From NCBI RefSeq assembly GCF_028288185.1, contig NZ_JAQBOF010000004.1, positions 177,187 through 241,186 of the forward strand: a stretch of 64,000 nt of DNA, written 5' to 3'. The translations under genes were made by a program, and so were the position numbers. The stretch is from Mucilaginibacter sp. (GTDB lineage: Bacteria > Bacteroidota > Bacteroidia > Sphingobacteriales > Sphingobacteriaceae). The notes beneath the pieces were generated by a model. It was not told the origin of the DNA and made no database searches. It saw nothing but the letters and a program-made list of their open reading frames with translations. This document shows, one piece after another, positions 806-48,333 of the stretch (position 1 is the stretch's first letter; the number at the start of each line of letters is the position of its first letter).

Positions 806-844
806 TTGGACTGCAAAGATATAATTCGTTTCTTTGCAGTCCAA
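806..844. promoter_or_regulatory. overlapping divergent Bacteroidota sigma-A promoters (tRNA-fMet / era)
   Basis: TATCTTTG -7 box on minus (821-814), TTTCTTTG on plus (829-836), TTG -33 boxes 20 nt upstream of each. Confidence 0.55.
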
Positions 845-866
845 ATATTATTTTAATTATTTTTCA

Positions 867-1742
867 ATGGGTCATAAAGCAGGTTTTGTAAGCATAATTG
901 GTAAGCCAAACGCGGGTAAGTCAACCCTGATGAACGCGCTTGTTGGCGAAAAAATGTCTATCATCACCCCTAAGGCACAAACTACCCGTCACCGTATTTT
1001 GGGTATTGTTAATACAGACGAGTATCAAATTGTATTCTCTGATACCCCCGGTATTATTAAGCCACATTATGAGCTGCATGAGCGCATGATGCACCAGGTA
1101 GAAGGTTCTATTGTTGATGCCGACCTGATATTGTTGGTAACTGATATATACGAGGAGTACGATGAAGAGGATGTAATTAAAAAACTGGCCGGATCGCAGG
1201 CACCGCTATTGGTATTAGTTAACAAGATAGACCAAAGCGATGAGGAGGCAGTTAAGAAAAAGATAGAGTACTGGCAGGAAAAGCTGAATCCTAAAGCGGT
1301 TTTCGCTATTTCGGCCCTGCATGATCATAACGTTATCTCGGTAATGAACTTTGTTATAGAGCATTTGCCCGAGCATCCGCCTTATTACGAAAAGGATCAG
1401 TTAACAGACCGTAACGACAGGTTCTTCGCGTCAGAAATGATCCGTGCACAGATATTAAAACAATACAAAAAAGAAATCCCTTACAGTGCCGAGGTTATTG
1501 TGACCGCGTTTGTTGAGGGCGAAAAGCTGCACCGCATTAGCGCCGAGATAATTGTGGAGCGCGACAGCCAAAAGAACATTATTATTGGGGAGGGTGGTAA
1601 AATGCTGAAGATAGTAGGTACCTATGCCCGCCGCGATATGGAAGATTTTTTCCAAAAGAAAGTTTTCCTGGAGATGTTTGTTAAAGTAATACCCGATTGG
1701 CGCAGCAAAAAAAACTACCTGAAAAAATTTGGGTACGAATAA
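867..1742 (+). CDS. era: GTPase Era
   Basis: GKPNAGKS P-loop, QTTR, DTPG, NKID, C-terminal KH domain; ATG 867 preferred to TTG 834. Confidence 0.97.
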   Translation: MGHKAGFVSIIGKPNAGKSTLMNALVGEKMSIITPKAQTTRHRILGIVNTDEYQIVFSDTPGIIKPHYELHERMMHQVEGSIVDADLILLVTDIYEEYDEEDVIKKLAGSQAPLLVLVNKIDQSDEEAVKKKIEYWQEKLNPKAVFAISALHDHNVISVMNFVIEHLPEHPPYYEKDQLTDRNDRFFASEMIRAQILKQYKKEIPYSAEVIVTAFVEGEKLHRISAEIIVERDSQKNIIIGEGGKMLKIVGTYARRDMEDFFQKKVFLEMFVKVIPDWRSKKNYLKKFGYE

Positions 1743-1743
1743 A

Positions 1744-1858
1744 TAGTTATGAGTTGTGGGTTATGAGTTTTGAGTATTCGTAATTTTGCAACTGATATTA
1801 CTGAGTGGTAAAGTTTTTGAGTAGATACTCATAACTCACTACTCAAAACTTACAACTT
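1744..1858. repeat. inverted heptamer arrays (GAGTTNT / ANAACTC family)
   Basis: Five 7-mers 1744-1778 and five complementary 7-mers 1824-1858. Confidence 0.85.
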
Positions 1859-1862
1859 AAAA

Positions 1863-3164
1863 ATGAGTAACATAGTAGCCATAGTTGGCCGCCCCAATGT
1901 AGGCAAGTCAACCTTATATAACCGTTTAACCGAAACCCGCAAAGCTATTGTGGATGACTTTAGCGGCGTAACCCGCGACAGGCATTACGGTACATCCGAG
2001 TGGACACACCACGAGTTTACCGTTATTGATACCGGCGGCTACGTAGCCAACTCGAACGATGTGTTTGAGGCCGCTATCCGCGAGCAGGTAGTTATAGCTA
2101 TCGAAGAAGCATCGGTTATTTTGTTTTTGGTGGACGTTACCACCGGTATTACCGATCTGGATGATGAGATAGCAACCATATTGCGTAAAGGCAATAAGCC
2201 AACATTTGTGGTAGTTAACAAGGTTGATAACAATAACCAGCAATCAGACGCTACAGTATTTTACAGCCTAGGTTTAGGCGAGATCTACAATATCTCCTCC
2301 ATGACCGGCTCGGGCACCGGCGAATTGCTTGACGAAGTGGTTAAGCATTTTGATGAAGAAAAATTAGAAGAAAACACCCGCCCTAAATATGCTATTGTTG
2401 GCCGTCCTAACGTGGGTAAATCATCTATCATCAATTCATTGATCGGTAAGGACCGTAACATAGTTACCCCGATTGCCGGCACCACGCGCGATTCTATCCA
2501 CATACATTATAACCAATACGGTCATGATTTTATGCTGATAGATACTGCCGGTATGCGTAAAAAAACCAAGGTAAAAGAGAATATCGAATTTTACTCGGTT
2601 ATGCGTACCATTAAGGCTTTAGAAGAAGCGGATGTAGTGATACTGATGATAGATGCTGTTGAAGGTATCGAGTCGCAGGATGTCAACATCTTCCACCTGG
2701 CCGAGAAGAATAAGAAAGGCATAATGATTGTGGTAAACAAGTGGGATTTGATTGAAAAGAACAATAAAACCACAAAGGTTTTTGAGGACATGATCAAAGA
2801 AAAACTGCAGCCGTTTACCGATGTGCCTATTGTATTTACATCAGTTACCGAAAAACAACGTGTTTTAAAGGTGATTGACGTAGCTAACCAGGTTTACGAA
2901 AATCGCGCCCGCAAAATATCAACCTCAAAACTTAACGAAGTAATGCTGCCGATAATTGAACACTATCCGCCGCCATCATTAAAAGGCAAATACGTTAAAA
3001 TTAAATATATCACCCAGATAGCCGGTACATCGCCCATGTTTGCATTCTTTTGCAACCTGCCGCAATATGTTAAGGAACCGTATTACCGTTTCATCGAAAA
3101 TAAGATAAGAGAAAACTTTGAGTTTAGCGGCGCGCCTATACAGGTGTGGTTTAGACAGAAGTAG
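1863..3164 (+). CDS. der: ribosome biogenesis GTPase Der (EngA)
   Basis: Two tandem GRPNVGKS G-domains plus KH-like C-terminus. Confidence 0.97.
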
Positions 3165-14697: not shown

Positions 14698-15483
14698 TTA
14701 AACAGTAAAAGCGTTAGGCAGCATTAATAAAAAAGGAATGGCTTGGTTATAATTTAACTCGTTGTAAAATATCCCCAGTCTGTTCAAGTTTTTATAATAG
14801 TGGTTAACGTTGGTATAATAATTGAGTTCGGTTTGCAGGTACCAGGCTTTGGGGCCAAGTTTTTGGGCTATGAACCATTTCTCTAACAAGCGCGCGGCGC
14901 GTCCGTTACCGTCTTCAAAAGGGTGGATGCACACAAACAACAAGTGAATAAATGCTGCGAAATAAAAAACCTCGGCGTGGGTAAGTTGCAGCGTTTTTAG
15001 TGTTTCTATATCGGCCCAAAGCAAGTCGAGCTGTGTTGCTACCTCCCCGGGCATTGCAGCCTCAAATTGGATCCGGCCGGTATTATGTTCCATAACCACC
15101 ATATTGCCCGTACGCAAAGCGCCCTGCTTATTTGCAGGTAACAGGTGTGCGGAAATTAGTTTGTGTGCGGCTAAAAAATTAGCGGCTGTAAATTGGTTTT
15201 GCTGTGCAAACAGGTAGGCCTGGTACAGGTCGTCAGGCTTTTGTACCAGGTCGGGCTGATACTCCAGGTTAAGCATTTTATGTTTCAGGTAGCTATCTAC
15301 CTCCATTCGCTCGCCCTCAATCCGTGACGAGGTTATGGCCGATACCGCTATATAATAACTAAATGTCGCCGTTGATATTTCGGCATCTTTCAAATTATTA
15401 AAAGCTGCCTCTAAATTGCTACGGGCCTGTTGCAGGTATTGGGCAAACAGGGTAACGGGTATTATATTTAGTTGTGCTGCCAT
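14698..15483 (-). CDS. Fic domain protein (class II, N-terminal inhibitory motif)
   Basis: HPFEDGNGRAAR catalytic motif; SSRIEG matches (S/T)xxxE(G/N). Confidence 0.92.
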   Translation of the reverse strand: MAAQLNIIPVTLFAQYLQQARSNLEAAFNNLKDAEISTATFSYYIAVSAITSSRIEGERMEVDSYLKHKMLNLEYQPDLVQKPDDLYQAYLFAQQNQFTAANFLAAHKLISAHLLPANKQGALRTGNMVVMEHNTGRIQFEAAMPGEVATQLDLLWADIETLKTLQLTHAEVFYFAAFIHLLFVCIHPFEDGNGRAARLLEKWFIAQKLGPKAWYLQTELNYYTNVNHYYKNLNRLGIFYNELNYNQAIPFLLMLPNAFTV

Positions 15484-15576
15484 ATACAGGATATGTTAAA
15501 GCTAACTAAAGTTTGGAAGTATTAAGGTGGATAGGCTAAAGGGTATAAAGCGGCTGTACCTGGTAAACATCCCGGC

Positions 15577-15628
15577 CCTGTAGTTATAAACTACAGGCAT
15601 AATCGTTCGAAGTCGGGAGACTTCGAAC
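15577..15628. repeat. two short REP-like palindromes
   Basis: CCTGTAGTT-ATA-AACTACAGG and GTTCGAAGTC-GGGA-GACTTCGAAC. Confidence 0.7.
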
Positions 15629-15682
15629 AGCAGGGGAATTAAATAGTAATTTTTATATATAGTTTAGTGTACCAAAATGGAT

Positions 15683-16324
15683 TTATACAGGATATACTTC
15701 ATGATCGGGGTCTATCCAAAGCAATTGCAAAAAACCGAATTGGCGAATACCCCAAATTCTAAAGGTTCCACTTAATCTAAGTGAAAATAATTCATCGCAA
15801 TCGTCCAGCTTTAATTCTTCTAATCTTTTTTGAGCATCTTTGCATATTTTCGAAACAGACACATTATGATGTTTTGTTTTATTTTGTTTACCAAATTGTT
15901 GTCTTTCCAATTCATGCCAATTAAACCCTTCTAGTGATTTTAATTTAGGAATAACTTCAGACCAAAAAATACTCTCGCCTATTGAATTTATGACAATTTT
16001 TTGTTCGGTAGCAGATATTTTATTATTAGATTCTTCAATCAAGATGTTTAGAAGGTCATTCAAAGATTTGAATCTTCTTCCTGAAAGCTTATCTATGGCT
16101 TTATAAACATCATTATCTAGATTATGGGGTAATTCTTTTAAGAGATCATCATTAAAATCAAATTCTATCTCATTTATAATTTTTTCCAAACCCCATTTTC
16201 CATTCATATCAATTTTATTAAATTGCCATGAAGCATAATGGTCTTTTACCAAACTTGGTGAATATTCTTTATTTGGTGATTTTTGTTTAGAAGGTATTAT
16301 AGATGATTTTGGAATTTTGTTCAT
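15683..16324 (-). CDS. putative toxin (PanT-type partner; RelE-like C-terminal fold inferred)
   Basis: C-terminus LFSLRLSGTFRIWGIR..LLWIDPDHEVYP; 4-nt overlap with Panacea gene; AT-rich. Confidence 0.65.
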   Translation of the reverse strand: MNKIPKSSIIPSKQKSPNKEYSPSLVKDHYASWQFNKIDMNGKWGLEKIINEIEFDFNDDLLKELPHNLDNDVYKAIDKLSGRRFKSLNDLLNILIEESNNKISATEQKIVINSIGESIFWSEVIPKLKSLEGFNWHELERQQFGKQNKTKHHNVSVSKICKDAQKRLEELKLDDCDELFSLRLSGTFRIWGIRQFGFLQLLWIDPDHEVYPV

Positions 16325-16911
16325 AGAGAGCTATAATATTCTGCCATGGATTCATGTGAAATAGCATTACTACCACGCTCCGTTAATGACAATCCGTTTC
16401 TTGCATTTCTCCAAGGGGTTTCTAAATGAGTTAACTCAATCAACCACTGTGAAGGCTTATCTCCATAATAGTTTAATACAGAATTAATTGTTTCTTTTTG
16501 ATTTTCATCTAATAAGTCAGGATTTCCAATGGATATATTACTAATAGTATATAATCCTCTATGATAAGAAAATAAATCTTTTACGACTGGGCCATTAGCC
16601 CAAGCCTCTATTTTCTCCGTAAACAAAGGACGTTCATCCCAAACCAATGACCAAGCTTGACAGTAATATAATAGTTTATGCAGCTTCATGGTGGTCATCG
16701 CCCCTTTCATTTTAATAATTAAAGCTGCTACGTCAAAAACTGAAACCTTTAAATTAGGTGTAAAAGGTACTTCTTCTTTCCAAAGGACTTTTGGGGCAAA
16801 ACTATCAACATCAAAATTTAAAGTATTTGTTTTCTCAACATCGTAGTAAACACTAATATTCTTCGAATACGAAACATCTTGTTCAATTTTGTTTTCAGTA
16901 TTATTATTCAT
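16321..16911 (-). CDS. Panacea (DUF4065/SocA-like) antitoxin with about 55-aa N-terminal extension
   Basis: MKLHKLLYYCQ, LFxExIEAWxNGPVV, LIELTHxExPW signatures. Confidence 0.9.
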   Translation of the reverse strand: MNNNTENKIEQDVSYSKNISVYYDVEKTNTLNFDVDSFAPKVLWKEEVPFTPNLKVSVFDVAALIIKMKGAMTTMKLHKLLYYCQAWSLVWDERPLFTEKIEAWANGPVVKDLFSYHRGLYTISNISIGNPDLLDENQKETINSVLNYYGDKPSQWLIELTHLETPWRNARNGLSLTERGSNAISHESMAEYYSSL

Positions 16912-17524
16912 TTTCTAATTCGATATTATATAGTTTATTCAATAGCTCTAAACTGTCGTTTTTAAATTTTACAATTATTCCAGAAGTAAAAATTTCTTTA
17001 AACTGCAATAGTGACACAATCTTATAGGTATTATTTATATCCAAAGTGTAAGAATTTGTGTTTTTTATAATTTGAATATTCAGTTCGTAATCATCTTTTT
17101 TAAATTTTCTGATTAAGCTACATTGCGCTTCTTCAAAATTTAATTCATTATATGCTTCAATATCTTTAAGCGGAAATAAGTTTGAAAGTTCATCACATGT
17201 TTTAGATTCGAAAACAAAGTTTATTCCAAGATCGCTTACCGGTGTATGTTCTAAGTATTGTGAAATTTTTAAAGCCAAATCTTCTATAAGATTAAAAGAA
17301 CTATCCGTAGAATCTAAAACTGAAAATTGAAGTCTGTTTCCAAATACAGAAACACGAATGTTTTTATATGAGAATCTTGGAGAAGCTCCGGAAGAATTTG
17401 TAGGATATTCAACAGTAACAGTTTCACCATCAAATAAATATTTGGATACCCATTCATTAGTAAAAATTGCCAAGTTCCAATTGCCAACGATTACTAATGC
17501 AAAATATTCTTCTTTATATTTCAT
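16904..17524 (-). CDS. hypothetical protein, first gene of the Panacea operon
   Basis: 206-aa AT-rich ORF (VIVGNWNLAIF...TPVSDLGINF); 8-nt overlap with next gene; TATATTTG promoter box at about 17567-17574 on minus. Confidence 0.75.
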   Translation of the reverse strand: MKYKEEYFALVIVGNWNLAIFTNEWVSKYLFDGETVTVEYPTNSSGASPRFSYKNIRVSVFGNRLQFSVLDSTDSSFNLIEDLALKISQYLEHTPVSDLGINFVFESKTCDELSNLFPLKDIEAYNELNFEEAQCSLIRKFKKDDYELNIQIIKNTNSYTLDINNTYKIVSLLQFKEIFTSGIIVKFKNDSLELLNKLYNIELENE

Positions 17525-23161: not shown

Positions 23162-25618
23162 TTAATTTGCGCCCACATTAATCAAATCAGCAAATACGCC
23201 AGCAGCGGTAACTTCGGCACCTGCGCCGGGGCCTTTAACAACCAACGGGCGCTCTTTGTATCTATCGGTAGTGAACGATATAATATTATCACTGCCCGAT
23301 AGCATATAGAAAGGGTGGTTCTCATCCACCATTTCTAAGGTGATGGATGCTTTGCCATCTTCTAGTTTGCCTATATATCTTAACACTTTTCCATCAGCTT
23401 CCGCGCGATTTTTAATATCGGCAAAGTAGGCATCTTCGGCTATTAAAGTTTGGTAAAAATCATCAACACTGGTCGCATCTAAACTGGCTTGTGGCAACAT
23501 GCTTTGTATAGATACATCTGATGCTTCTAATGCATACCCTGCATCCCGGGCCAGGATTAACATCTTGCGCATAAAGTCGGTACCGCGCAGGTCATCGCGA
23601 GGGTCGGGTTCTGTATAGCCTTTTTCCTGTGCCAGTTTTACGGTGTCATGGAAATTGGCATCGCCCTTAAAATTGTTGAAAAGGAAAGAAATAGTACCCG
23701 ATAATATAGCTTCTATCTTTTGTACCCTGTCGCCGCTATTCATCAAATCTTTTAATGTGCGGATAATAGGCAGGCCTGCACCTACGTTGGTCTCGTAAAA
23801 GAAATCAACCCCATGCTGGCGTGCGCTGTCCCTGAAAGTTTTATACTGTTGGTACGACCCCGAGTTGCCGATCTTATTACAGGTAACTATAGATATGGTC
23901 GACTTTAAAATCTCCTCATAAAAAGTAATGGGTTTAGGGCTGGCAGTGTTATCAATAAAAACGCAGTTAGGCAAATTCAGGTCTTTCATTTTGGCAATGA
24001 AGGTCGAAAGATCGGCTTGCTCGTTTGATTGATTAAGTGTTTCCTCCCAATTATCTAACGATATGCCATCTTCATTAAAAACCATTTTGCGGGTATTGCT
24101 TATGCCGGCTATTTTAACCTGTATGCCGTTGTTATCATGCAAAAACTGGGTGTGGCCGTTTAATTGTTTAAATAATGTTTTGCCGATGTTGCCGGTACCC
24201 AAACAAAAGGCATAAAGTGTCTTAGTTAACTGCACAAAGAATGCGTCATGCACCGCATTTAACGCTTTAGCCAGATCATGCGATGAAACGATAACGGATA
24301 TATTATATTCTGACGATCCCTGCGCGATTGCCCTAACATTAACACCGTTACGGCCCAGCGAATGAAATAGTTTGCCCGATACACCCGGAGTTTCCTTCAT
24401 ATTCTCGCCAACTACGGCTAGTATGGCCAGATCCTTTTCTATATCTACATGCTCCAGTTTTTTGGCGAGTAGCTCTAATTCAAATTCCTGTTCAATTACC
24501 CGGCGGGCACGCTCGGTATCGCCCGGCGATACGGCGAAGGTTATGCTATGTTCTGATGATGATTGGGTGATTAATATCACGTTGATCTGCTCTCGCGCCA
24601 GCAAAGAAAACAATCGGCCACTAAAGCCCGATTTACCAACCATCCCGCTACCCTCAACATTTAATATGCTGATGTTATTGATAGATGATATCCCTTTTAT
24701 AGCCAGGTTTGATGGCTTGCAAACATGCTGAATGATAGTCCCCTCAAAACCCGGCTCGAAAGTATTTTTTATCACGATAGGGATCTTTTTTAAAAAGGCT
24801 GGTATCATGGTTGGCGGGTAAATAACCTTGGCACCGAAGTAGGATAATTCCATCGCTTCGGTATAAGTAAGCTCGGTTAATGAGAATGCTTTTTTAACCA
24901 TACGCGGGTCGGCGGTCATCATGCCGTTAACGTCTGTCCATATCTGTATCTCGCTTGCGTTAAGTGCCGCGCCAAATATTGCTGCTGTATAATCACTGCC
25001 GCCACGGCCAAGGGTAGTTATCTGCCCTTCGTCATTACTGGCTATAAAGCCGGTAACAAACAATACTTTGCCTTTATTTTCCTGGTACAGTCCGCGAATT
25101 AATTGTTCGGTTAATTCGGTATTTACTTTAGCCTGCCCGAATGAGCTATCAGTTTTTATAACTTCTGATGCATCCACAAAAACAGCCGGCATGTACTGCG
25201 CCGCAATTTTGCTGATCATTAGGGCTGAGCAACGTTCGCCATAACTTAAAACCAGGTCGCGGGTTTTTGGAGTAAGCTCGCGCAGGGTTAATATGCCTTG
25301 TAGTAATTCTTCTAAATGGTTAAAGTTGATCTTTAAGCGGGTTAGCGCCGGGTTTTGGTCGCGTATTTCGAGTAAAGCTTTTACAATCTCAAAATGGCGT
25401 TTTTCCAGATCGGCTAGTTGCGGGGTAAAGTCATTGCCTTTGGCGGCATCTTCTGCCATAGCTATAAGCAGGTTGGTTACGCCGCTCATGGCCGATAATA
25501 CAACTACCGGCTGGTCTGCACCGGCTTTAACTTCACCCTCTTTTTTAAGAATGTTTAGCAGGGTTTGAATGCTTTGAGCCGAACCTACGGATGTTCCGCC
25601 AAATTTTAAGATCTTCAT
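23162..25618 (-). CDS. thrA: bifunctional aspartokinase/homoserine dehydrogenase I
   Basis: KFGGTSVG, LGRGGSDY, ACT domains, YETNVGAGLP, EPDPRDDL, GPGAG; start MKILK at 25618. Confidence 0.97.
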   Translation of the reverse strand: MKILKFGGTSVGSAQSIQTLLNILKKEGEVKAGADQPVVVLSAMSGVTNLLIAMAEDAAKGNDFTPQLADLEKRHFEIVKALLEIRDQNPALTRLKINFNHLEELLQGILTLRELTPKTRDLVLSYGERCSALMISKIAAQYMPAVFVDASEVIKTDSSFGQAKVNTELTEQLIRGLYQENKGKVLFVTGFIASNDEGQITTLGRGGSDYTAAIFGAALNASEIQIWTDVNGMMTADPRMVKKAFSLTELTYTEAMELSYFGAKVIYPPTMIPAFLKKIPIVIKNTFEPGFEGTIIQHVCKPSNLAIKGISSINNISILNVEGSGMVGKSGFSGRLFSLLAREQINVILITQSSSEHSITFAVSPGDTERARRVIEQEFELELLAKKLEHVDIEKDLAILAVVGENMKETPGVSGKLFHSLGRNGVNVRAIAQGSSEYNISVIVSSHDLAKALNAVHDAFFVQLTKTLYAFCLGTGNIGKTLFKQLNGHTQFLHDNNGIQVKIAGISNTRKMVFNEDGISLDNWEETLNQSNEQADLSTFIAKMKDLNLPNCVFIDNTASPKPITFYEEILKSTISIVTCNKIGNSGSYQQYKTFRDSARQHGVDFFYETNVGAGLPIIRTLKDLMNSGDRVQKIEAILSGTISFLFNNFKGDANFHDTVKLAQEKGYTEPDPRDDLRGTDFMRKMLILARDAGYALEASDVSIQSMLPQASLDATSVDDFYQTLIAEDAYFADIKNRAEADGKVLRYIGKLEDGKASITLEMVDENHPFYMLSGSDNIISFTTDRYKERPLVVKGPGAGAEVTAAGVFADLINVGAN

Positions 25619-25631
25619 TACAGGGTTATTT

Positions 25632-25669
25632 AAAATAAAAACGCCTTCCTCTGTGTGGAGGAAGGCGTT
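25632..25669 (-). terminator. attenuator terminator of the thr operon
   Basis: 12-bp stem AACGCCTTCCTC/GAGGAAGGCGTT plus U-run, just upstream of thrA. Confidence 0.85.
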
Positions 25670-25705
25670 CATGTGGTTTTTATTTTTATGTTTTATACCA
25701 TACGA

Positions 25706-25771
25706 TTATCTTCCTCCTGGGCTTTTGCCGGTGGTTGTAGTCGTTGTTGGTGTTGTGTTTATCAGTTTCAT
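25706..25771 (-). CDS. thrL: thr operon leader peptide MKLINTTPTTTTTTGKSPGGR
   Basis: 21 codons, 8 Thr; its 3' end GGAGGAAG is complementary to CTTCCTCC in the terminator 5' arm. Confidence 0.85.
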   Translation of the reverse strand: MKLINTTPTTTTTTGKSPGGR

Positions 25772-25877
25772 ATAATGTCTGTAAAGTAAGTAGATATTTT
25801 TTAAATAAGCAAGGATAAAATAAAAAAAGTATGATTTGGGATAAAACGATACGTATTTGCTCTATTTTTGTAGGATA

Positions 25878-26051
25878 ATGAAGGATAAGCTTTTAAAGTC
25901 AGATAATGCCTTGCTTGAAAAAAAGAAAGCATTAGAAAAGCAATTAATAAAAGAGGTAAAACTATTAAAGAAGTTTAATCCGGATAAAGAATTGAATGCT
26001 GATTTTGAATATGCTTCACTAGTTGATCTGCAAAAACATTTGGATGACTAA
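25878..26051 (+). CDS. small hypothetical protein (57 aa, Lys/Leu-rich)
   Basis: ORF upstream of rsgA behind a TATTTTTG promoter-like box; no motif. Confidence 0.4.
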   Translation: MKDKLLKSDNALLEKKKALEKQLIKEVKLLKKFNPDKELNADFEYASLVDLQKHLDD

Positions 26052-26078
26052 TCTAAAAGATGATATTCTAACACTTTA

Positions 26079-26999
26079 ATGCAGGGGCTAATAACAAAAT
26101 CAACCGGAAGCTGGTACCAGGTGCAAACGCCTGATGGGGAAAGATACGATTGCCGTATAAAAGGCAAGTTCCGCATAAAGGGTATTACCACTACCAATCC
26201 ATTAGCCGTGGGTGATGTGGTTGATTTTGATTTGGAGCCCGAGCAGCAAACCGGCGTCATAACCAATTTACATCAGCGTAAAAATTATATCATTCGCAAA
26301 TCCATTAATCTGTCCAAGCAGGGGCAGATAATTGCCGCTAATTTAGACCAGGCTTTATTGGTGGTAACATTGGCTTCGCCACGTACTTCGTTAGGTTTTA
26401 TTGATCGTTTTTTAGTTACTGCCGAGGCTTATGATATCCCTGCAAGATTGATCTATAATAAGCTTGACCTGTTTAGCGATGAAGGCTTAGACATACTGGC
26501 AGATTATAAAGCTGTTTATGAAAACATTGGCTATCCCTGCTTTGAAGTATCCGCGTTAGAGGGTACTAATATCAGCCAGGTGCAAGATTTGCTGAAAGAT
26601 AAAGTAACCTTGTTTTCCGGCCACTCGGGTGTTGGCAAATCCAGCCTGATCAACGCCTTATTACCTGATCTGGAACTACGCACCAGCGAGGTGTCCGAAT
26701 GGAGCGACAAAGGCACCCACACCACCACCTTCGCCGAAATGTTTGAACTGCCACAAGGCGGCTTTATTATTGACACCCCCGGTATACGCGAGCTGGGCGT
26801 AATAGATATCGAAAAACATGAACTGGGCCGCTACTTCCCCGAAATGCGATCGCGCATGCATAATTGTCGCTTTAATAATTGCCGCCATATAAATGAGCCT
26901 GGTTGCGCAGTGCTTGCTGCTTTAGAAAACGGCGAGATCGAAGTATCCCGCTATGAAAGCTATCTAAGCATTTATAATGGGAATGATACCAGGGCGTAA
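26079..26999 (+). CDS. rsgA: ribosome small subunit-dependent GTPase A
   Basis: OB fold, NKLDL, GHSGVGKSS, GTHTTT, IDTPG, CRFNNCRHINEPGC zinc finger. Confidence 0.97.
   Translation: MQGLITKSTGSWYQVQTPDGERYDCRIKGKFRIKGITTTNPLAVGDVVDFDLEPEQQTGVITNLHQRKNYIIRKSINLSKQGQIIAANLDQALLVVTLASPRTSLGFIDRFLVTAEAYDIPARLIYNKLDLFSDEGLDILADYKAVYENIGYPCFEVSALEGTNISQVQDLLKDKVTLFSGHSGVGKSSLINALLPDLELRTSEVSEWSDKGTHTTTFAEMFELPQGGFIIDTPGIRELGVIDIEKHELGRYFPEMRSRMHNCRFNNCRHINEPGCAVLAALENGEIEVSRYESYLSIYNGNDTRA
26935..26998 (+). repeat. direct repeat copy 1 (rsgA 3' end; attL-like)
   Basis: 62/64 identical to 27970-28033. Confidence 0.95.
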
Positions 27000-27030
27000 G
27001 TTATTTGGATTTAAGCTGAATTAATACTAG

Positions 27031-27942
27031 ATGAATAAATTGAAACCAATTTTAGATATTGATAAGTTCAATTTATTAGTTGAACAACTAAATGTTGTTG
27101 AGATGAAAAATGCAACCGTAGAAGATTTGGCAGTTTGCATCGATAAGATGGCAATTGGCTACGGAGTAGAGGCGTGTGACTTTAATCCTGGTCTTTTGTT
27201 ATATCGAGGGGTCTTTTATTCCGAACAGCCTAAATTATATAAAGATATTATATATCCACCAGAGGACAAAGCTAAACGTAATCGAGCTAGTGCAGAGGGG
27301 GAACAAATGTTTTATGCTGCAAGTTCTAGGAAAGCAGTTTTTTATGAATTAAATATTAAGCCGGGTGATAAACTGGTTCTTTCAAGTTGGATTACTAATA
27401 ATAGTTTACTATTTAATAATGTTGGTTACACAAGATCAAATTTTGAGAGATTATCATCTTCTAGATTGCCATTAAACGATGATGTCCGATTTGGAGAAGT
27501 CAATTACATTGTAGCAGATTTCTTGGCGAAAACTTTCTGCCAACCTATTTCAGAAATAAATGATTATTTATATAAATTGACGATAGCAATTGCTAAAGTT
27601 CATTTAAAAGACATAACTGGTAATAAATTTTCTGGATTGTTTTATCCTACTGTTAGATTCAACGGCGACGAAGAAAACTTTGCTATCATCAAAGATACTA
27701 TTGACAAAGGACTATTAGATTTTGATCGAGCGGAATTCATTGAAGTGCTTGATAAATGTGAAAACAGATATAAATACAGAATAATAAATGTAGCAGGCAC
27801 TATTATCGATGAGAGTATTATTTGGAATAATCCTACTGATAAATGGACTGTTTATGACGACTCTGATGAATTAGTTTTTGTGGAAGAACATGGACATATT
27901 AGAGCGTACAATAACAGCGGAGATATTATAAATCCAGATTGA
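27031..27942 (+). CDS. RES-domain protein (AT-rich, standalone)
   Basis: LYRG, NRAS..GEQMFYAA, AVFYE, GLFYPT pattern typical of RES domains. Confidence 0.75.
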   Translation: MNKLKPILDIDKFNLLVEQLNVVEMKNATVEDLAVCIDKMAIGYGVEACDFNPGLLLYRGVFYSEQPKLYKDIIYPPEDKAKRNRASAEGEQMFYAASSRKAVFYELNIKPGDKLVLSSWITNNSLLFNNVGYTRSNFERLSSSRLPLNDDVRFGEVNYIVADFLAKTFCQPISEINDYLYKLTIAIAKVHLKDITGNKFSGLFYPTVRFNGDEENFAIIKDTIDKGLLDFDRAEFIEVLDKCENRYKYRIINVAGTIIDESIIWNNPTDKWTVYDDSDELVFVEEHGHIRAYNNSGDIINPD

Positions 27943-27969
27943 TAATAAGAGAATTATGCCATTTACTAA

Positions 27970-28033
27970 AGATCAAAGTATCCCGCTATGAAAGCTATCT
28001 AAGCATTTATAATGGGAATGATACCAGAGCGTA
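27970..28033 (+). repeat. direct repeat copy 2 (duplicated rsgA 3' end; attR-like)
   Basis: Re-encodes VSRYESYLSIYNGNDTRA followed by TAG. Confidence 0.95.
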
Positions 28034-28202
28034 GATAACTCTAACAAGGTAGTATTACAATACCATATCTACTTCCGAATAACTTTCTCCGAAAATTTTA
28101 TATTAAAAAGATGTGCAATACTTTACTGTAGCAAAATAGTTGCTCACGCATAAATTTATTTATGTTTGTATATAACCAATAGGGACCTAATCCCCAAACT
28201 TT

Positions 28203-29426
28203 ATGAGAAGAATACTATTTATCGGAATGATGCTGTTCCCTTTTTTGGCTATGGCGCAAGGTTTCCAGGTTAATTTGCACGGACAAAAGCAAATTGGCAT
28301 GGGCCATACTGGCACAGGATTATTGCAGGACGGAGCTTCGGTACTATTTAACCCCGGTGCGGTTGCCATGCTGCCCGAAAATTATGTGCAAGGCGGCATA
28401 AGCCCCTTATTTTTTAATTCGGCTTTTTTAGCTGCAGGTGCAAATCAACAAGAAAATAATAAGAACCAGGTTGCTACACCATTTAACGTGTATGCGGTAT
28501 GGGGCCCTAAAAATGCACCATGGAAAGTGGGCTTAGGCGTATATACACCATTTGGTGGTTTAACTGATTGGGGTACTTCATGGACAGGCAAATACTCTTT
28601 AGAGAGTCTGAATTTGAAAGCTATTTATTTTCAGCCTACTATAAGCTATAAATTAAGCAATATAGTAAGCATTGGCGCAGGTTTTGTTTATAACCATGCC
28701 AGTGTTGATCTTACCCGTGGCATCCCGGTATCAAGCAGCACGGCGTCAAGTGGCCAAGCCGAGTTAAAAGGCAACGGTAAAGGTTACGGTTTTAACGCGG
28801 GCATATTTGTTAAGCCCAGCCAAAAAGTTAGCTTAGGTTTAACTTATCGTTCTAAAGTTAATACTACTATTGATGGTGGTACGGCTACTTTTGCCGTTCC
28901 AAATGCTTTGGCAGCTAATTTTCCGTCGCCTAATACATTTTCGTCATCAATTCCCTTACCATCTACTACATCGTTAGGTATAGGTTATTATCCAACTAAT
29001 AAATGGACGGTGGCTTTGGATCTGGAATATGTAAACTGGGATGTTTATAAATCGTTAGATTTTAATTACGGACAAACTACTGCTACGCTGCAAAACACAC
29101 ATTCGCCACGTAACTATAAAAACGCTTACGATTTTAGGGGTGGTGCCGAATATAAAGCCTGCACTAATGTTGCTTTGCGTTTTGGCGGTGGTTATGCCAC
29201 AACCCCGGTTCAGGATGGTTATGTAACGCCAGAGGCGCCTGATGCTAATCGGATATATGGTACGTTAGGGTTTGGCTACAAACTGGCCAAAAAGCTTGAT
29301 CTTGATGTTTCACTGGAGTTTGAGCACTTAATGAGCCGTACCCAAACCAATATAGAAACCAACCTGGCAGGCACATTTAAAACAGATGTAACCATACCGG
29401 GCGTAGCCCTTGTTTATCACTGGTAA
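28203..29426 (+). CDS. OmpP1/FadL/TodX family outer-membrane transporter
   Basis: AQGFQVN..GMG, NPGA hatch motif, beta-barrel pattern, C-terminal W. Confidence 0.9.
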   Translation: MRRILFIGMMLFPFLAMAQGFQVNLHGQKQIGMGHTGTGLLQDGASVLFNPGAVAMLPENYVQGGISPLFFNSAFLAAGANQQENNKNQVATPFNVYAVWGPKNAPWKVGLGVYTPFGGLTDWGTSWTGKYSLESLNLKAIYFQPTISYKLSNIVSIGAGFVYNHASVDLTRGIPVSSSTASSGQAELKGNGKGYGFNAGIFVKPSQKVSLGLTYRSKVNTTIDGGTATFAVPNALAANFPSPNTFSSSIPLPSTTSLGIGYYPTNKWTVALDLEYVNWDVYKSLDFNYGQTTATLQNTHSPRNYKNAYDFRGGAEYKACTNVALRFGGGYATTPVQDGYVTPEAPDANRIYGTLGFGYKLAKKLDLDVSLEFEHLMSRTQTNIETNLAGTFKTDVTIPGVALVYHW

Positions 29427-47039: not shown

Positions 47040-48224
47040 TTAATACAACAAATGATCATACGGATATCTATCTACATGAATCTGCTTTACATAATCATAT
47101 AATAAGCTCCTAAACTCATCAATATTTTCTTTTTTTGTGGCTGATATAAATATGGCCGGGCTGTTGTTTTTGGCCATCCAGCTATGTTTAAAATCATCCA
47201 GCGTTAACGGCTCCACTTCCTCATCCGGATTCATTTGGATGGGTTGGTAAGCGTCTATCTTATTAAATACAGTGATGGTTTGTTTATCGCTTGCACCCAA
47301 GTCTTTTAACGTTTCATTTACAGCACGTATCTGGTCCTCAAAGCTGGGGTGCGATACGTCAACAACGTGTATCAATATATCCGCTTCGCGCACTTCGTCT
47401 AACGTAGATTTAAAACACTCTACCAAATGGTGAGGTAACTTGCGGATAAAACCAACAGTGTCCGATAACAGGAACGGCACATTCTCAATCACCACTTTTC
47501 TAACTGTAGTATCCAGGGTAGCAAATAATTTATTCTCTGCAAACACATCCGATTTGGATATCATATTCATGATGGTTGATTTGCCAACGTTGGTATAACC
47601 TACTAACGCGACCCTAACCATTGCCGTACGGTTTTTACGTTGTGTCGCGTTTTGCTTATCTATTAGTTTTAGCTTGTCTTTAAGCAGGTCAATTTTATTC
47701 AGGATCAACCTACGGTCAGTCTCAATTTGGCTTTCACCTGGTCCACGCATACCGATACCACCTTTTTGGCGCTCTAAGTGGGTCCATAAACGGGTAAGAC
47801 GTGGAAGTAGATATTGTAACTGTGCCAGTTCCACCTGGGCTTTAGCCTGCGCGGTTTGCGCACGATTAGCAAAAATATCCAATATCAGGTTGTTGCGATC
47901 TAATATTTTAACCTGCAACTCATTCTCAATATTACGCAGTTGCGATGGCGTAAGCTCATCATCAAAAACAACAATATCTATTTCTTCTTCTTTTACAAAT
48001 GCTTTAATATCCTCTAACCGGCCCGAGCCAACAAAGGTTGCCCTGTCCGGTTTCTGTAGTTTTTGGGTAAATATCTTAACGGTTTCGGCTCCGGCAGTAT
48101 CCACCAAAAATTGTAGTTCTTCTAAATATTCTTTCGCTCGCTCATCCGTTTCGTTGGCGGTAATAACGCCAACCAATACAGCTCGTTCCTGCTTCACAGC
48201 AGTATCATAAAATTTTTGTTTCAT
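47040..48224 (-). CDS. hflX: GTPase HflX
   Basis: QVELAQL.Y.LPRL, GPGE..IE.DRR, GYTNVGKS, LFATLDTT, DTVGFI; start MKQKF preferred. Confidence 0.97.
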   Translation of the reverse strand: MKQKFYDTAVKQERAVLVGVITANETDERAKEYLEELQFLVDTAGAETVKIFTQKLQKPDRATFVGSGRLEDIKAFVKEEEIDIVVFDDELTPSQLRNIENELQVKILDRNNLILDIFANRAQTAQAKAQVELAQLQYLLPRLTRLWTHLERQKGGIGMRGPGESQIETDRRLILNKIDLLKDKLKLIDKQNATQRKNRTAMVRVALVGYTNVGKSTIMNMISKSDVFAENKLFATLDTTVRKVVIENVPFLLSDTVGFIRKLPHHLVECFKSTLDEVREADILIHVVDVSHPSFEDQIRAVNETLKDLGASDKQTITVFNKIDAYQPIQMNPDEEVEPLTLDDFKHSWMAKNNSPAIFISATKKENIDEFRSLLYDYVKQIHVDRYPYDHLLY

Positions 48225-48333
48225 TAATAATGATTTAACAATCAAAGTGCCAAGTTACGAAAACTGGTATAAGTGTTGATTAACTAAGTTTTTTATGACA
48301 GAATATCAGGTAAAAAATATTTAACTTTATAAT

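What the first reader, a model, noticed from the sequence alone, without database searches (positions are those of the whole stretch)
26935..28033. 1,035-bp integrase-free cassette inserted at the rsgA 3' end with a 64-bp duplication
Seen: 26935-26998 and 27970-28033 are 62/64 identical (52-nt perfect core) and both encode the RsgA C-terminus plus stop (TAA versus TAG). Between them is one AT-rich RES-domain gene and no recombinase. Known: integrative elements that target 3' gene ends restore the gene and leave such att-like duplications. rsgA is not a target I recognise as commonly reported. Inference: a minimal islet mobilised in trans, or the remnant of a larger element; rsgA may be a variable defence-cargo slot.
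Basis: partly seen in the sequence, partly recalled or inferred. Interest (0 to 1): 0.7.

Follow-up and report, generated by a model that had tools for sequence, protein, structure and literature searches.

The report
Recombinase-free toxin-gene cassette in rsgA tail
A 1-kb, single-gene DNA cassette encoding a RES-type toxin-like protein sits inside the last 64 bases of the ribosome-assembly gene rsgA of a soil Mucilaginibacter. It is nearly identical in a second species whose surrounding genes are about 9% different, so it moves between species as a discrete unit without carrying any recombinase of its own.

Summary
In detail: 26935-26998 and 27970-28033 are 62/64 identical with a 52-nt exact core, the only repeated 30-mer in the 64-kb window. 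Each copy encodes the RsgA C-terminus plus a stop codon (TAA on the left, TAG on the right).

Between the copies lie 971 bp holding one 303-aa ORF and no recombinase. The ORF misses Pfam's RES cut-off on its own, but 36 of 102 relatives match RES, so it is a divergent RES-superfamily protein.

New evidence: a sister species has the same structure. Its flanking genes are 87-92% identical to the window, its cassette about 99% identical (P = 4e-18), and the high-identity tract stops at the repeats. The cassette is therefore a recently exchanged, discrete unit.

In each species the middle of both repeat copies is host-type, which a fixed-crossover att model does not predict. Only the last 9-17 nt of the left copy plus its TAA stop travel with the cassette.

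A third lineage carries different cargo at the same site with its own rsgA-tail remnant. No empty site, excised circle, integrase or vehicle was found.

Best reading: an integrase-free cassette that integrates by recombination within the conserved rsgA tail. The enzyme is unknown.

The parts
25863..25870 (+). Bacteroidota-type -7 promoter motif (TATTTTTG), with TTTG at -28, upstream of the pemI remnant and rsgA. It is the likely promoter from which rsgA and the cargo are read.
   Evidence: Regex scan. There is no such motif and no terminator between rsgA and the cargo. Co-transcription is inferred, not shown.
26079..26999 (+). rsgA (306 aa), a ribosome small-subunit GTPase. It is the target gene and is completed by cassette-borne codons.
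   Evidence: Pfam RsgA_GTPase 5e-56 and RsgA_N 3e-16. RsgA is 76-96% identical (aa) in 80 Mucilaginibacter and Pedobacter genomes.
26935..26998 (+). Left repeat (DR-L), the functional rsgA tail. Positions 1-47 are host-type.
   Evidence: It shares lineage-specific bases with DR-R at positions 5, 17, 30, 32 and 47, and the w-specific Val codon GTA at position 9.
26982..26999 (+). Cassette-borne replacement end of rsgA (AATGATACCAGGGCGTAA). It is identical in both species, while the native tails differ. At least the last 9 nt plus the TAA stop travel with the cassette.
   Evidence: Alignment A1 and pairwise differences. The left copies are identical from position 48. The native right copies read CCAGAGCGTAG (window) and CGCGGGCGTAG (sister).
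26999..27969 (+). Unique part of the cassette (971 bp): 32-nt leader, cargo ORF, 27-nt trailer. It is 960/971 identical to the sister species.
   Evidence: It is single-copy in the window and has no terminal inverted repeats. Its ends show no significant single-strand structure.
27031..27942 (+). Cargo gene: a 303-aa divergent RES-superfamily protein (ADP-ribosyltransferase-like fold). The core is roughly residues 55-225, with an N-terminal helical segment and a C-terminal beta-rich domain. No partner antitoxin gene is present.
   Evidence: Pfam RES E = 0.29 for this protein alone. The family has 2,152 representatives. 36/102 relatives hit RES, best 3.4e-11. R59, R85, Y95 and E106 are invariant. 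AF2 model pLDDT 83. The top PDB fold hit is the RES toxin VPA0770, 8gug_A, at E 0.14.
27970..28034 (+). Right repeat (DR-R): the displaced native rsgA tail with its TAG stop, now non-coding. It has one nonsynonymous change in the old frame (GAA to AAA).
   Evidence: An unrelated lineage in run X4 has an rsgA that ends with exactly this tail (28002-28034) and then continues into other DNA.
28035..28202 (+). Native intergenic region with the fadL promoter (-7 motif TATGTTTG at 28161). Homology to the third lineage (L109) resumes at 28151.
28203..29426 (+). fadL-family outer-membrane transporter. It marks the right-hand backbone, which is vertically inherited in the three lineages.
   Evidence: Pfam Toluene_X 3e-53. 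It is 91.9% identical to the sister lineage and is present in L109.

Best explanation
This is a real, discrete, recombinase-free integrative cassette. The mobile unit is about 1 kb. It holds a promoterless ORF for a RES-family toxin-like protein, short spacers, and at its left end its own copy of the last few codons and stop codon of rsgA. It is inserted within the last 64 nt of rsgA. As a result rsgA is finished by cassette-borne codons (TAA) and the native tail (TAG) is pushed 1,035 bp downstream as a dead repeat. The cargo is probably transcribed by read-through from the rsgA operon promoter. The cassette has recently passed between Mucilaginibacter species. The most likely mechanism is Campbell-type integration of a circular (repeat-bounded) intermediate. 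Recombination would occur inside the rsgA-tail homology, probably in the genus-invariant block GCATTTATAATGG.AATGATAC, and would be carried out by general homologous recombination rather than by a dedicated integrase. Recombination between the two repeats would excise the circle and restore an intact rsgA. The unit probably arose in a genome where the cargo lay natively next to rsgA, as in L001. rsgA is the last syntenic gene of the conserved thrABC-rsgA block, so its tail is the only homology a transferred fragment can use. Shown: the anatomy, the horizontal exchange, the sharp boundaries, the host-type repeats, and recurrent insertion at this tail. Inferred: the circular intermediate, the enzyme, the co-transcription and the toxin activity. 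The stated confidence is for the whole statement including the homology-driven mechanism. That it is a horizontally exchanged discrete cassette I hold at about 0.85.
For: Anatomy. Horizontal exchange as a unit: the cassette differs at 11/971 sites, against 171/2080 in flanking coding sequence (P = 4e-18). Synonymous codon differences are 3/304 in the cargo and 72/307 in rsgA (P = 5e-20). Identity drops within the repeats themselves, to 57/64 in DR-L and 54/64 in DR-R. The sister-lineage structure was assembled independently in several studies (19 contigs). Cassette-borne rsgA end: the left copies are identical from position 48 through the TAA stop and the spacer in both species, while the native right tails differ. 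Against a fixed crossover, and for homology-driven exchange: positions 5-47 are host-type in both copies in both species, including a w-specific Val codon. There are no terminal inverted repeats, no folded ends, and no recombinase in the cassette or among 20 window ORFs. Recurrence with variable repeat length: L109 has different cargo at the same tail, with a remnant of about 40 nt (22-nt exact block) and the same polarity. Source-like configuration: in L001 a 64%-identical cargo directly follows rsgA with no repeat. One-sided homology: thrA-rsgA is conserved across the genus while the downstream DNA is not syntenic. Expression: there is no promoter motif or terminator between rsgA and the cargo.
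Against: No excised circle and no empty rsgA-fadL site was seen in 12 public runs, although these are contigs and do not show rare forms. Only two carrier lineages are known. None of the 80 species representatives has the cassette, which sits uneasily with a highly mobile element. RecA-type recombination between 64-nt tails with 7 mismatches is inefficient. To obtain host-type bases in both copies, the model needs either donors with near-identical tails or a later gene conversion between the repeats. The sister lineage's repeats differ at 4 sites, somewhat more than expected if they are as young as the cassette (3 observed against about 1 expected at positions 1-47 over both lineages, P = 0.09). 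Identical junctions in both species are equally expected under a site-specific mechanism. Nothing here identifies the enzyme.
Confidence: 0.45

Rival explanations
1. CIME-type islet. The cassette is a non-autonomous element whose two repeats are attL and attR for a site-specific (tyrosine or serine) recombinase encoded elsewhere, on an ICE, IME or prophage that targets the rsgA 3' end. That recombinase would excise and integrate the cassette in trans, and gene conversion between the repeats would later make the arms host-like.
For: Elements that insert in the 3' end of a gene and carry a replacement end are the classic signature of integrase-mediated integration. CIMEs are defined as elements that have lost their integration and transfer genes but kept attL and attR (PMC5704250). 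The junctions and the 1,035-bp spacing are identical in the two species. The crossover limits fall in an invariant block, AATGATAC. There is a second independent insertion at the same tail with the same polarity in L109. In L103 a cargo homolog lies next to a tyrosine-recombinase gene fragment.
Against: A fixed crossover predicts that complementary parts of the two repeats, 64 nt in total, are element-borne and about 99% conserved between hosts. At most 21 nt are. No integrase-bearing element with a second rsgA tail was found within 5 kb in 78 relatives. There is no recombinase among 20 window ORFs. The cassette is absent from the phage, plasmid and viral collections. The repeat lengths differ between the two events (64 against about 40 nt).
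Confidence: 0.28
2. There is no cassette-level mobility. The insertion and duplication happened once in the common ancestor of the two species. The low divergence of the cargo reflects a later gene-specific sweep or allele replacement by ordinary homologous recombination between the species.
For: Both species share the same junctions and the same backbone. Gene conversion could keep the two repeats alike within each genome.
Against: Recombination tracts would have to end within 17 nt or less (left) and 4 nt or less (right) of the cassette edges, in DNA that is otherwise about 9% diverged. Identity falls from 99% to 84-89% exactly at the repeats. The flanks next to the cassette are not less diverged than average (26800-26999 is 87% identical).
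Confidence: 0.1
3. Transposition-like insertion with a very long target-site duplication. A trans-acting enzyme joins the cassette ends to staggered positions about 45-55 nt apart in the rsgA tail, and fill-in synthesis copies the host sequence on both sides.
For: It explains in a single step why the central 43 nt of both repeat copies are host-type in each species, and why the number of differences between copies is roughly compatible with the age of the cassette (P = 0.09).
Against: No known prokaryotic transposase makes such a stagger (from my own knowledge). There are no terminal inverted repeats or structured ends. The left end continues rsgA in frame with homologous codons, which points to homology-guided joining. 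The L109 event has a different repeat length.
Confidence: 0.06
4. The duplication is an assembly artefact or a chimeric contig.
For: The 52-nt exact core is longer than k = 31, so k-mer contigs of the window's lineage break inside the repeats (L090 covers 26963-28027).
Against: Depth is even across rsgA, cassette and fadL in X1. In the sister lineage the two copies differ enough for single contigs to cross both of them in several independent studies and assemblers.
Confidence: 0.02

Closest known systems
CIMEs (cis-mobilizable elements) left at ICE/IME attachment sites in the 3' ends of housekeeping genes (PMC5704250)
   Same: Bounded by direct repeats that contain the 3' end of the target gene. 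Has no integration or transfer genes. The target gene stays intact. The cargo is accessory.
   Different: No cognate ICE, IME or integrase is known for rsgA. The unit is far smaller (1 kb, one gene). The central part of both repeats is host-type, which a fixed-crossover att site does not predict. The same compact unit occurs in two species, rather than as a decayed relic.
SCC-like or pseudo-SCC elements lacking ccr at the 3' end of rlmH (orfX) in staphylococci (from my own knowledge; SCCmec excision is mentioned in PMC10434264)
   Same: Recombinase-less cassettes flanked by repeats of the end of a ribosome-related housekeeping gene, and movable as discrete units.
   Different: Those repeats are 15-18 bp and are recognised by Ccr serine recombinases supplied by other SCC elements. 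Here the repeat is 64 bp and no recombinase is known.
Integron gene cassettes (from my own knowledge)
   Same: About 1 kb, one promoterless ORF with minimal spacers, expressed from an upstream promoter, and thought to move as a circle.
   Different: There is no attC-like folded site and no IntI or attI. The flanking repeat is the tail of a host gene.
Campbell-type ('ends-in') integration of a circle through a single region of homology, and homology-facilitated illegitimate recombination during natural transformation (from my own knowledge; the latter is mentioned in PMC3410848)
   Same: A single stretch of homology is duplicated on both sides of the inserted DNA. The insert can be lost again by recombination between the repeats. 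No dedicated recombinase is needed.
   Different: This is usually a laboratory or one-off event. Here the same unit recurs in two species, and the homology is only 64 nt.
Xre-RES toxin-antitoxin modules such as MbcTA, P. putida Xre-RES and VPA0770/0769 (PMC12204516)
   Same: The cargo belongs to the RES superfamily. R, Y and E are invariant, the fold looks ART-like, and the top structural hit is the RES toxin VPA0770.
   Different: There is no Xre or DUF2384 antitoxin gene. The protein is twice as long, with N- and C-terminal extensions. The Ser of the R-E-S signature appears to be Thr. Pfam's RES cut-off is not reached by this protein.

Membership tests
RES domain superfamily (Pfam PF08808) | Match to the RES profile above the curated cut-off | tested here: inconclusive
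   The protein itself scores E = 0.29, 11.6 bits, against a cut-off of 23.2. Of 102 diverse relatives found with its family profile, 36 match RES at E <= 0.01, best 3.4e-11. One relative is above the cut-off (P0067, 23.8 bits), and its match maps to cargo residues of about 55-225.
RES domain superfamily (Pfam PF08808) | Conserved Arg, Glu and Ser (plus Tyr) catalytic signature | tested here: inconclusive
   R59, R85, Y95 and E106 are invariant in 102 sequences, and Y205, P206 and N216 are nearly so. The position expected for Ser is T207 in the close family. The residue mapping to RES was done by eye, because the direct Pfam alignment covers only residues 77-123.
RES domain superfamily (Pfam PF08808) | ADP-ribosyltransferase-like fold | tested here: inconclusive
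   The full-length AF2 model has pLDDT 83. The best PDB matches are a RES toxin (8gug_A, E 0.14, probability 0.54, TM 0.47 on the target), then diphtheria toxin, Tse6 and CARDS toxin. They are coherent but weak. The domain-only model failed (pLDDT 45). No PDB hit was found by sequence profile.
Xre-RES type II toxin-antitoxin module | Adjacent Xre/DUF2384 antitoxin gene in a two-gene operon | tested here: not met
   The cassette has spacers of only 32 and 27 nt. The neighbours are rsgA and fadL. Other family loci show no constant partner gene.
Xre-RES type II toxin-antitoxin module | NAD+ degradation or ADP-ribosylation activity, and toxicity | not testable with these tools
   Needs expression and an NAD+ assay.
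CIME (cis-mobilizable element) | Flanked by attL and attR direct repeats that include the 3' end of the target gene | tested here: met
   64-nt repeats, both encoding the RsgA C-terminus.
CIME (cis-mobilizable element) | Lacks integration and transfer genes | tested here: met
   There is one ORF and it is not a recombinase.
CIME (cis-mobilizable element) | Derived from, or sharing att sites with, an ICE or IME whose integrase targets the same gene | tested here: inconclusive
   None was found. 78 relatives have no second rsgA tail within 5 kb. There is no recombinase among 20 window ORFs. There were no phage, plasmid or viral-contig matches. Elements longer than 5 kb and the rest of the carrier genomes were not searched.
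CIME (cis-mobilizable element) | Repeat composition expected from a fixed crossover (one arm of each repeat element-borne and conserved between hosts) | tested here: not met
   Positions 5-47 are host-type in both copies in both species. Only positions 48-64 of the left copy are shared.
Integron gene cassette | attC recombination site (an imperfect palindrome that folds as a single strand) and a nearby IntI/attI | tested here: not met
   The junction regions fold no better than shuffles (z from -0.4 to +0.9). No integrase was found.
Insertion sequence or MITE | Terminal inverted repeats and a short (2-15 bp) target-site duplication | tested here: not met
   There are no terminal inverted repeats. 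The duplication is 64 nt and is partly supplied by the element.

The most novel reading that the evidence does not exclude
The cassette represents an undescribed mode of integration. Both ends are joined to the rsgA tail about 45-55 nt apart, and the gap is filled from the host template, giving a very long target-site duplication or an obligatory gap repair. The element supplies only the last codons of the gene. On this reading it would be a new class of minimal, non-autonomous mobile element that spreads single toxin or defence genes between species by using a conserved gene tail as its landing pad.
Probability: 0.08. Interest if true: 0.85.

Novelty: new variant of a known kind. Interest (0 to 1): 0.55.

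Why it matters
It shows, with sequence-level resolution, that a single accessory gene can cross a species boundary (about 9% divergence) as a 1-kb unit with razor-sharp edges and no recombinase of its own. It does so by landing in the tail of a conserved ribosome-assembly gene and repairing that gene as it inserts.

It adds rsgA to the list of gene-end integration sites. I found no report of it in the searchable literature. The site is used recurrently, by two different cargos in three related lineages.

The host-type repeats are not what textbook att recombination predicts. The locus is therefore a compact, experimentally tractable case for asking whether general recombination alone can run an excision and integration cycle.

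The cargo also defines a large subfamily of RES-superfamily proteins (more than 2,000 representatives). In the dozen or so loci examined they had no constant partner gene and no recognisable Xre-type antitoxin. This raises the question of how their presumed NAD+-directed toxicity is held in check.

Tried and rejected
1. Empty site or circle in public reads: 12 runs were laid on the region in three calls and none showed a joint. All runs are held as contigs, so absence is not shown.
2. Metagenome scan for the native flank downstream of DR-R: 0 hits. The collection lacks the JGI samples already known to hold the pattern, so the result is uninformative.
3. Exact look-up of the window's FadL: not on record.
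4. 'Cargo is a pseudogene in L097': rejected. The apparent frameshift is a scaffold gap of Ns.
5. Flanking repeats around other family members: none in L001, L002, L004, L007, L009, L098, L099 or L102. L103 and L106 have repeats of a different nature.
6. Plain tandem duplication in L109: rejected. The two lipoprotein genes are 32-44% identical at protein level, while the tail remnant keeps a 22-nt exact block.
7. Domain-only structure model: pLDDT 45, not usable.
8. PDB sequence-profile searches: no hits.
9. BFVD fold hits: only uncharacterised giant-virus proteins at TM of about 0.3.
10. PADLOC and NCBIfam: no hit.
11. Rfam over 25400-28400: nothing.
12. attC-like or IS200/605-like folded ends: not structured.
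13. Source lineage of the spacers: no match in any fetched locus.
14. Homologous-recombination import of cassette plus flanks from the sister species: rejected, because the flanks are fully diverged right up to the repeats.
Full report
OBSERVATION. 26935-26998 and 27970-28033 are 62/64 identical and 1,035 bp apart. The 52-nt exact core is the only repeated 30-mer in the whole 64-kb window, and shuffled sequence gives at most 16 nt. rsgA (26079-26999) matches Pfam RsgA_GTPase at 5e-56, and the gene after the second repeat (28203-29426) is a FadL/Toluene_X transporter. In the rsgA frame the left copy ends TRA-TAA and the right copy ends TRA-TAG. Between them is one ORF (27031-27942, 303 aa) with spacers of 32 and 27 nt, so nothing else fits. 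The cassette is 30-36% G+C, against 39-51% in the flanks.

ORGANISM AND NEIGHBOURHOOD. The 80 closest RsgA loci are Mucilaginibacter, then Pedobacter. None of them has the cargo, or fadL, within 5 kb of rsgA. thrA-rsgA adjacency is conserved across the genus, but the DNA after rsgA is almost never syntenic. The rsgA 3' end is therefore a general synteny breakpoint. The closest genome, L010, matches the window on both sides. Between rsgA and the Kelch-repeat gene it has an unrelated convergent lipoprotein gene, where the window has cargo, fadL and GDSL.

NOT AN ARTEFACT. Run X1 covers rsgA, cassette and fadL at even depth (19.6-21.1). In other studies, single contigs of a diverged lineage run from rsgA through both repeats into fadL. 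In the window's own lineage, k = 31 contigs break in the 52-nt core (L090). The integrated state there rests on the original assembly and on the equal depth.

THE KEY RESULT: A SISTER SPECIES WITH THE SAME CASSETTE. The 90% cluster of the cargo contains a variant (P0012) found on 19 contigs from ENA, JGI, NCBI MAGs and Logan. These loci (L091-L097) have the same order, rsgA, cargo, fadL, GDSL, Kelch, with both repeats 1,035 bp apart. Identity to the window, segment by segment, is as follows:
- thrA 90.8%
- rsgA 91.6%
- DR-L 57/64
- leader 31/32
- cargo 903/912
- trailer 26/27
- DR-R 54/64
- intergenic region 86.7%
- fadL 91.9%
- GDSL 87.3%
- Kelch 89.4%

The unique 971 bp differ at 11 sites, against 171/2080 in flanking coding sequence (P = 4e-18). 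Synonymous codon differences are 3/304 in the cargo against 72/307 in rsgA (P = 5e-20). Each repeat is significantly more diverged than the cassette interior (P = 5e-5 and 8e-8). The cassette's common ancestor is therefore roughly ten- to twenty-fold younger than the two host lineages, and the young tract ends at the repeats. That is horizontal exchange of a discrete unit. The cargo's few changes are mostly nonsynonymous (6 against 3), which suggests relaxed or diversifying selection. An apparent frameshift in L097 turned out to be a scaffold gap.

WHAT THE REPEATS SAY ABOUT MECHANISM. Writing w for the window and s for the sister, the pairwise differences over 64 nt are wL/wR 2, sL/sR 4, wL/sL 7 and wR/sR 10. 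At positions 5, 17, 30, 32 and 47, both copies in a genome carry that genome's own base. Both w copies also carry a w-specific Val codon at position 9. From position 48 to the stop codon and on into the leader, the two left copies are identical (ACC AGG GCG TAA). The right copies instead end in lineage-specific native tails (ACC AGA GCG TAG and ACG CGG GCG TAG). Another lineage in run X4 has an rsgA ending in exactly the w-type right tail.

Three conclusions follow:
- The cassette brings its own last codons and stop for rsgA.
- The right copy is the displaced native tail.
- The central 43 nt of both copies come from the host.

A single crossover at a fixed point, as in attP x attB, predicts that complementary parts adding up to 64 nt are element-borne and about 99% conserved between hosts. 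At most 21 nt are. Import of the cassette with its flanks by ordinary homologous recombination is excluded, because the flanks are fully diverged up to the repeats.

The remaining options are:
- Campbell-type integration through the tail homology, with variable crossover points and/or donors whose tails were near-identical to the recipient's.
- A fixed crossover followed by gene conversion between the repeats.
- Fill-in of a gap from the host template.

The number of differences between copies at positions 1-47 (3 over both lineages) is not far from what the cassette's age predicts (about 1; P = 0.09). The ends have no inverted repeats and no unusual single-strand structure.

A SECOND, INDEPENDENT EVENT AT THE SAME TAIL. 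I searched with FadL for the nearest lineages that share the backbone and looked up P0165. L109 has thrC, thrB, thrA, rsgA, slot, fadL, GDSL, Kelch, ligase. Its slot has no RES cassette. It contains, in order:
- a reverse-strand YWKNG-repeat lipoprotein gene, split into two ORFs;
- an rsgA-tail remnant (TTATTTAGGCATTTATAATGGGAATGATACTCGTGTTTAA), with a 22-nt exact block equal to repeat positions 34-55 and a stop codon in the equivalent place;
- a second lipoprotein gene;
- the fadL promoter, where homology to the window resumes at 28151.

The remnant's end resembles the native tail of L010 more than L109's present tail. So the polarity is the same as in the window: incoming DNA supplies a new tail on the left, and the native tail is displaced to the right. 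The two lipoprotein genes are only 32-44% identical at protein level, so this is not a recent tandem duplication. The repeat here is about 40 nt rather than 64. The 78 other testable relatives have no second tail within 5 kb. In L001, a relative whose RsgA is 94% identical, a 64%-identical cargo follows the rsgA stop after 5 nt. It has no downstream repeat and is followed by a Y1 transposase with REP-like hairpins. This looks like the kind of native rsgA-cargo adjacency from which a tail-carrying fragment could have been captured.

NO VEHICLE AND NO RECOMBINASE FOUND. Twenty other ORFs of the window include no integrase or transposase. The cargo has no match in the phage collection, and only a 26% homolog on a Paraburkholderia megaplasmid. 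The cassette's right end is absent from viral contigs. rsgA does not appear as an integration site in the searchable literature. Low-depth cassette fragments occur in three more studies, one of them 95.6% identical, so further variants exist.

THE CARGO. The word-indexed search found 11 clusters. The exhaustive profile search found 2,152 representatives, 299 of them at E <= 1e-30. The protein itself misses Pfam RES (11.6 bits against a cut-off of 23.2), but 36 of 102 diverse relatives match it (best 3.4e-11). The matches map to residues of about 55-225. R59, R85, Y95 and E106 are invariant. The full-length model is confident (pLDDT 83). Its best PDB matches, though weak, are the RES toxin VPA0770, then diphtheria toxin, Tse6 and CARDS toxin. 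RES toxins have an ADP-ribosyltransferase fold and deplete NAD+, or ADP-ribosylate Prs, and they are normally paired with an Xre antitoxin (PMC12204516). Here there is no antitoxin gene and no constant partner in other loci. The protein also has N- and C-terminal extensions, without which the core is not predicted to fold. I infer an NAD+-directed toxin-like effector that is restrained in cis or by an unlinked factor. This is not shown.

EXPRESSION. Bacteroidota-type -7 motifs on the plus strand occur only at 25863, before the pemI remnant and rsgA, and at 28161, before fadL. No terminator lies between rsgA and the cargo. The cargo is probably read through from the rsgA operon promoter, much as an integron cassette is expressed.

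VERDICT. It is an integrase-free, horizontally exchanged cassette at a gene end that is used recurrently. It is not a relic of a larger element. Mobilisation in trans is unproven, and the repeat pattern fits homology-driven integration better than a fixed att crossover. I rate it a new variant of a known kind, closest to a CIME or a Campbell-type insertion. It has a new target, minimal size, an unexplained repeat pattern and an uncharacterised RES subfamily as cargo.

Noticed in passing
window 25857-26078: The 64-aa ORF upstream of rsgA is a truncated PemI-like antitoxin (67% identity over 45 aa to the sister's 85-aa protein). The pemK toxin gene that abuts the rsgA start in the sister lineage and in L010, L017, L019, L046, L062, L071 and L076 has been deleted here. 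This is a decayed toxin-antitoxin pair on the 5' side of rsgA.
   Followed up: yes
window 25771-25706 (minus strand) and hairpin 25639-25670: A Thr-rich leader peptide (MKLINTTPTTTTTTGKSPGGR) followed by a 13-bp terminator-like hairpin lies just upstream of the probable true start of thrA. It looks like a threonine attenuator. The stretch 25600-25799 is 99% identical to the sister species, where the flanks are about 91%. No Rfam family matches.
   Followed up: partly
window 14698-17524 (minus strand): A small islet with a Fic/DOC protein (14698-15483), a SocA/Panacea-domain antitoxin-like protein (16321-16911) and two ORFs without Pfam matches.
   Followed up: no
L106 1-117, 695-884, 2727-2907: A distant cargo homolog (35% identity) lies in what looks like an array of small gene sets separated by at least three direct copies of a roughly 190-nt intergenic repeat. 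L107 and L108 share the cargo side at 99% but have different upstream DNA.
   Followed up: partly
L103 564-767 and 475-524 / 2915-2964: A 51%-identical cargo homolog lies just downstream of the C-terminal fragment of a tyrosine recombinase gene (..GHNDIKTTLRYLHV..). A 50-nt direct repeat (86%) brackets the homolog plus a 265-aa ORF.
   Followed up: no
L001 1417-2140: Next to the 64%-identical cargo there is a Y1 (IS200/RAYT-like) transposase gene flanked by inverted pairs of REP-like hairpins (GGTAGCCCCTATGGGG / CCCCGTAGGGGCTACC).
   Followed up: no
L109 5527-6605: The inserted YWKNG-repeat lipoprotein gene in the third lineage is split into two overlapping ORFs (201 and 180 aa), so it may be a pseudogene.
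   Followed up: no
P0012 (cluster of the cargo): One NCBI record names the sister-lineage cargo protein as coming from a 'Hanamia sp.' MAG (Chitinophagaceae). All contexts shown are Mucilaginibacter-like. This is either a mis-binned contig or a wider host range.
   Followed up: no
window 834-3164 and 47040-48245: The window also encodes Era, Der (EngA) and HflX GTPases in addition to RsgA. They are ordinary housekeeping genes, noted only because several ribosome-associated GTPases lie within one 64-kb window.
   Followed up: no
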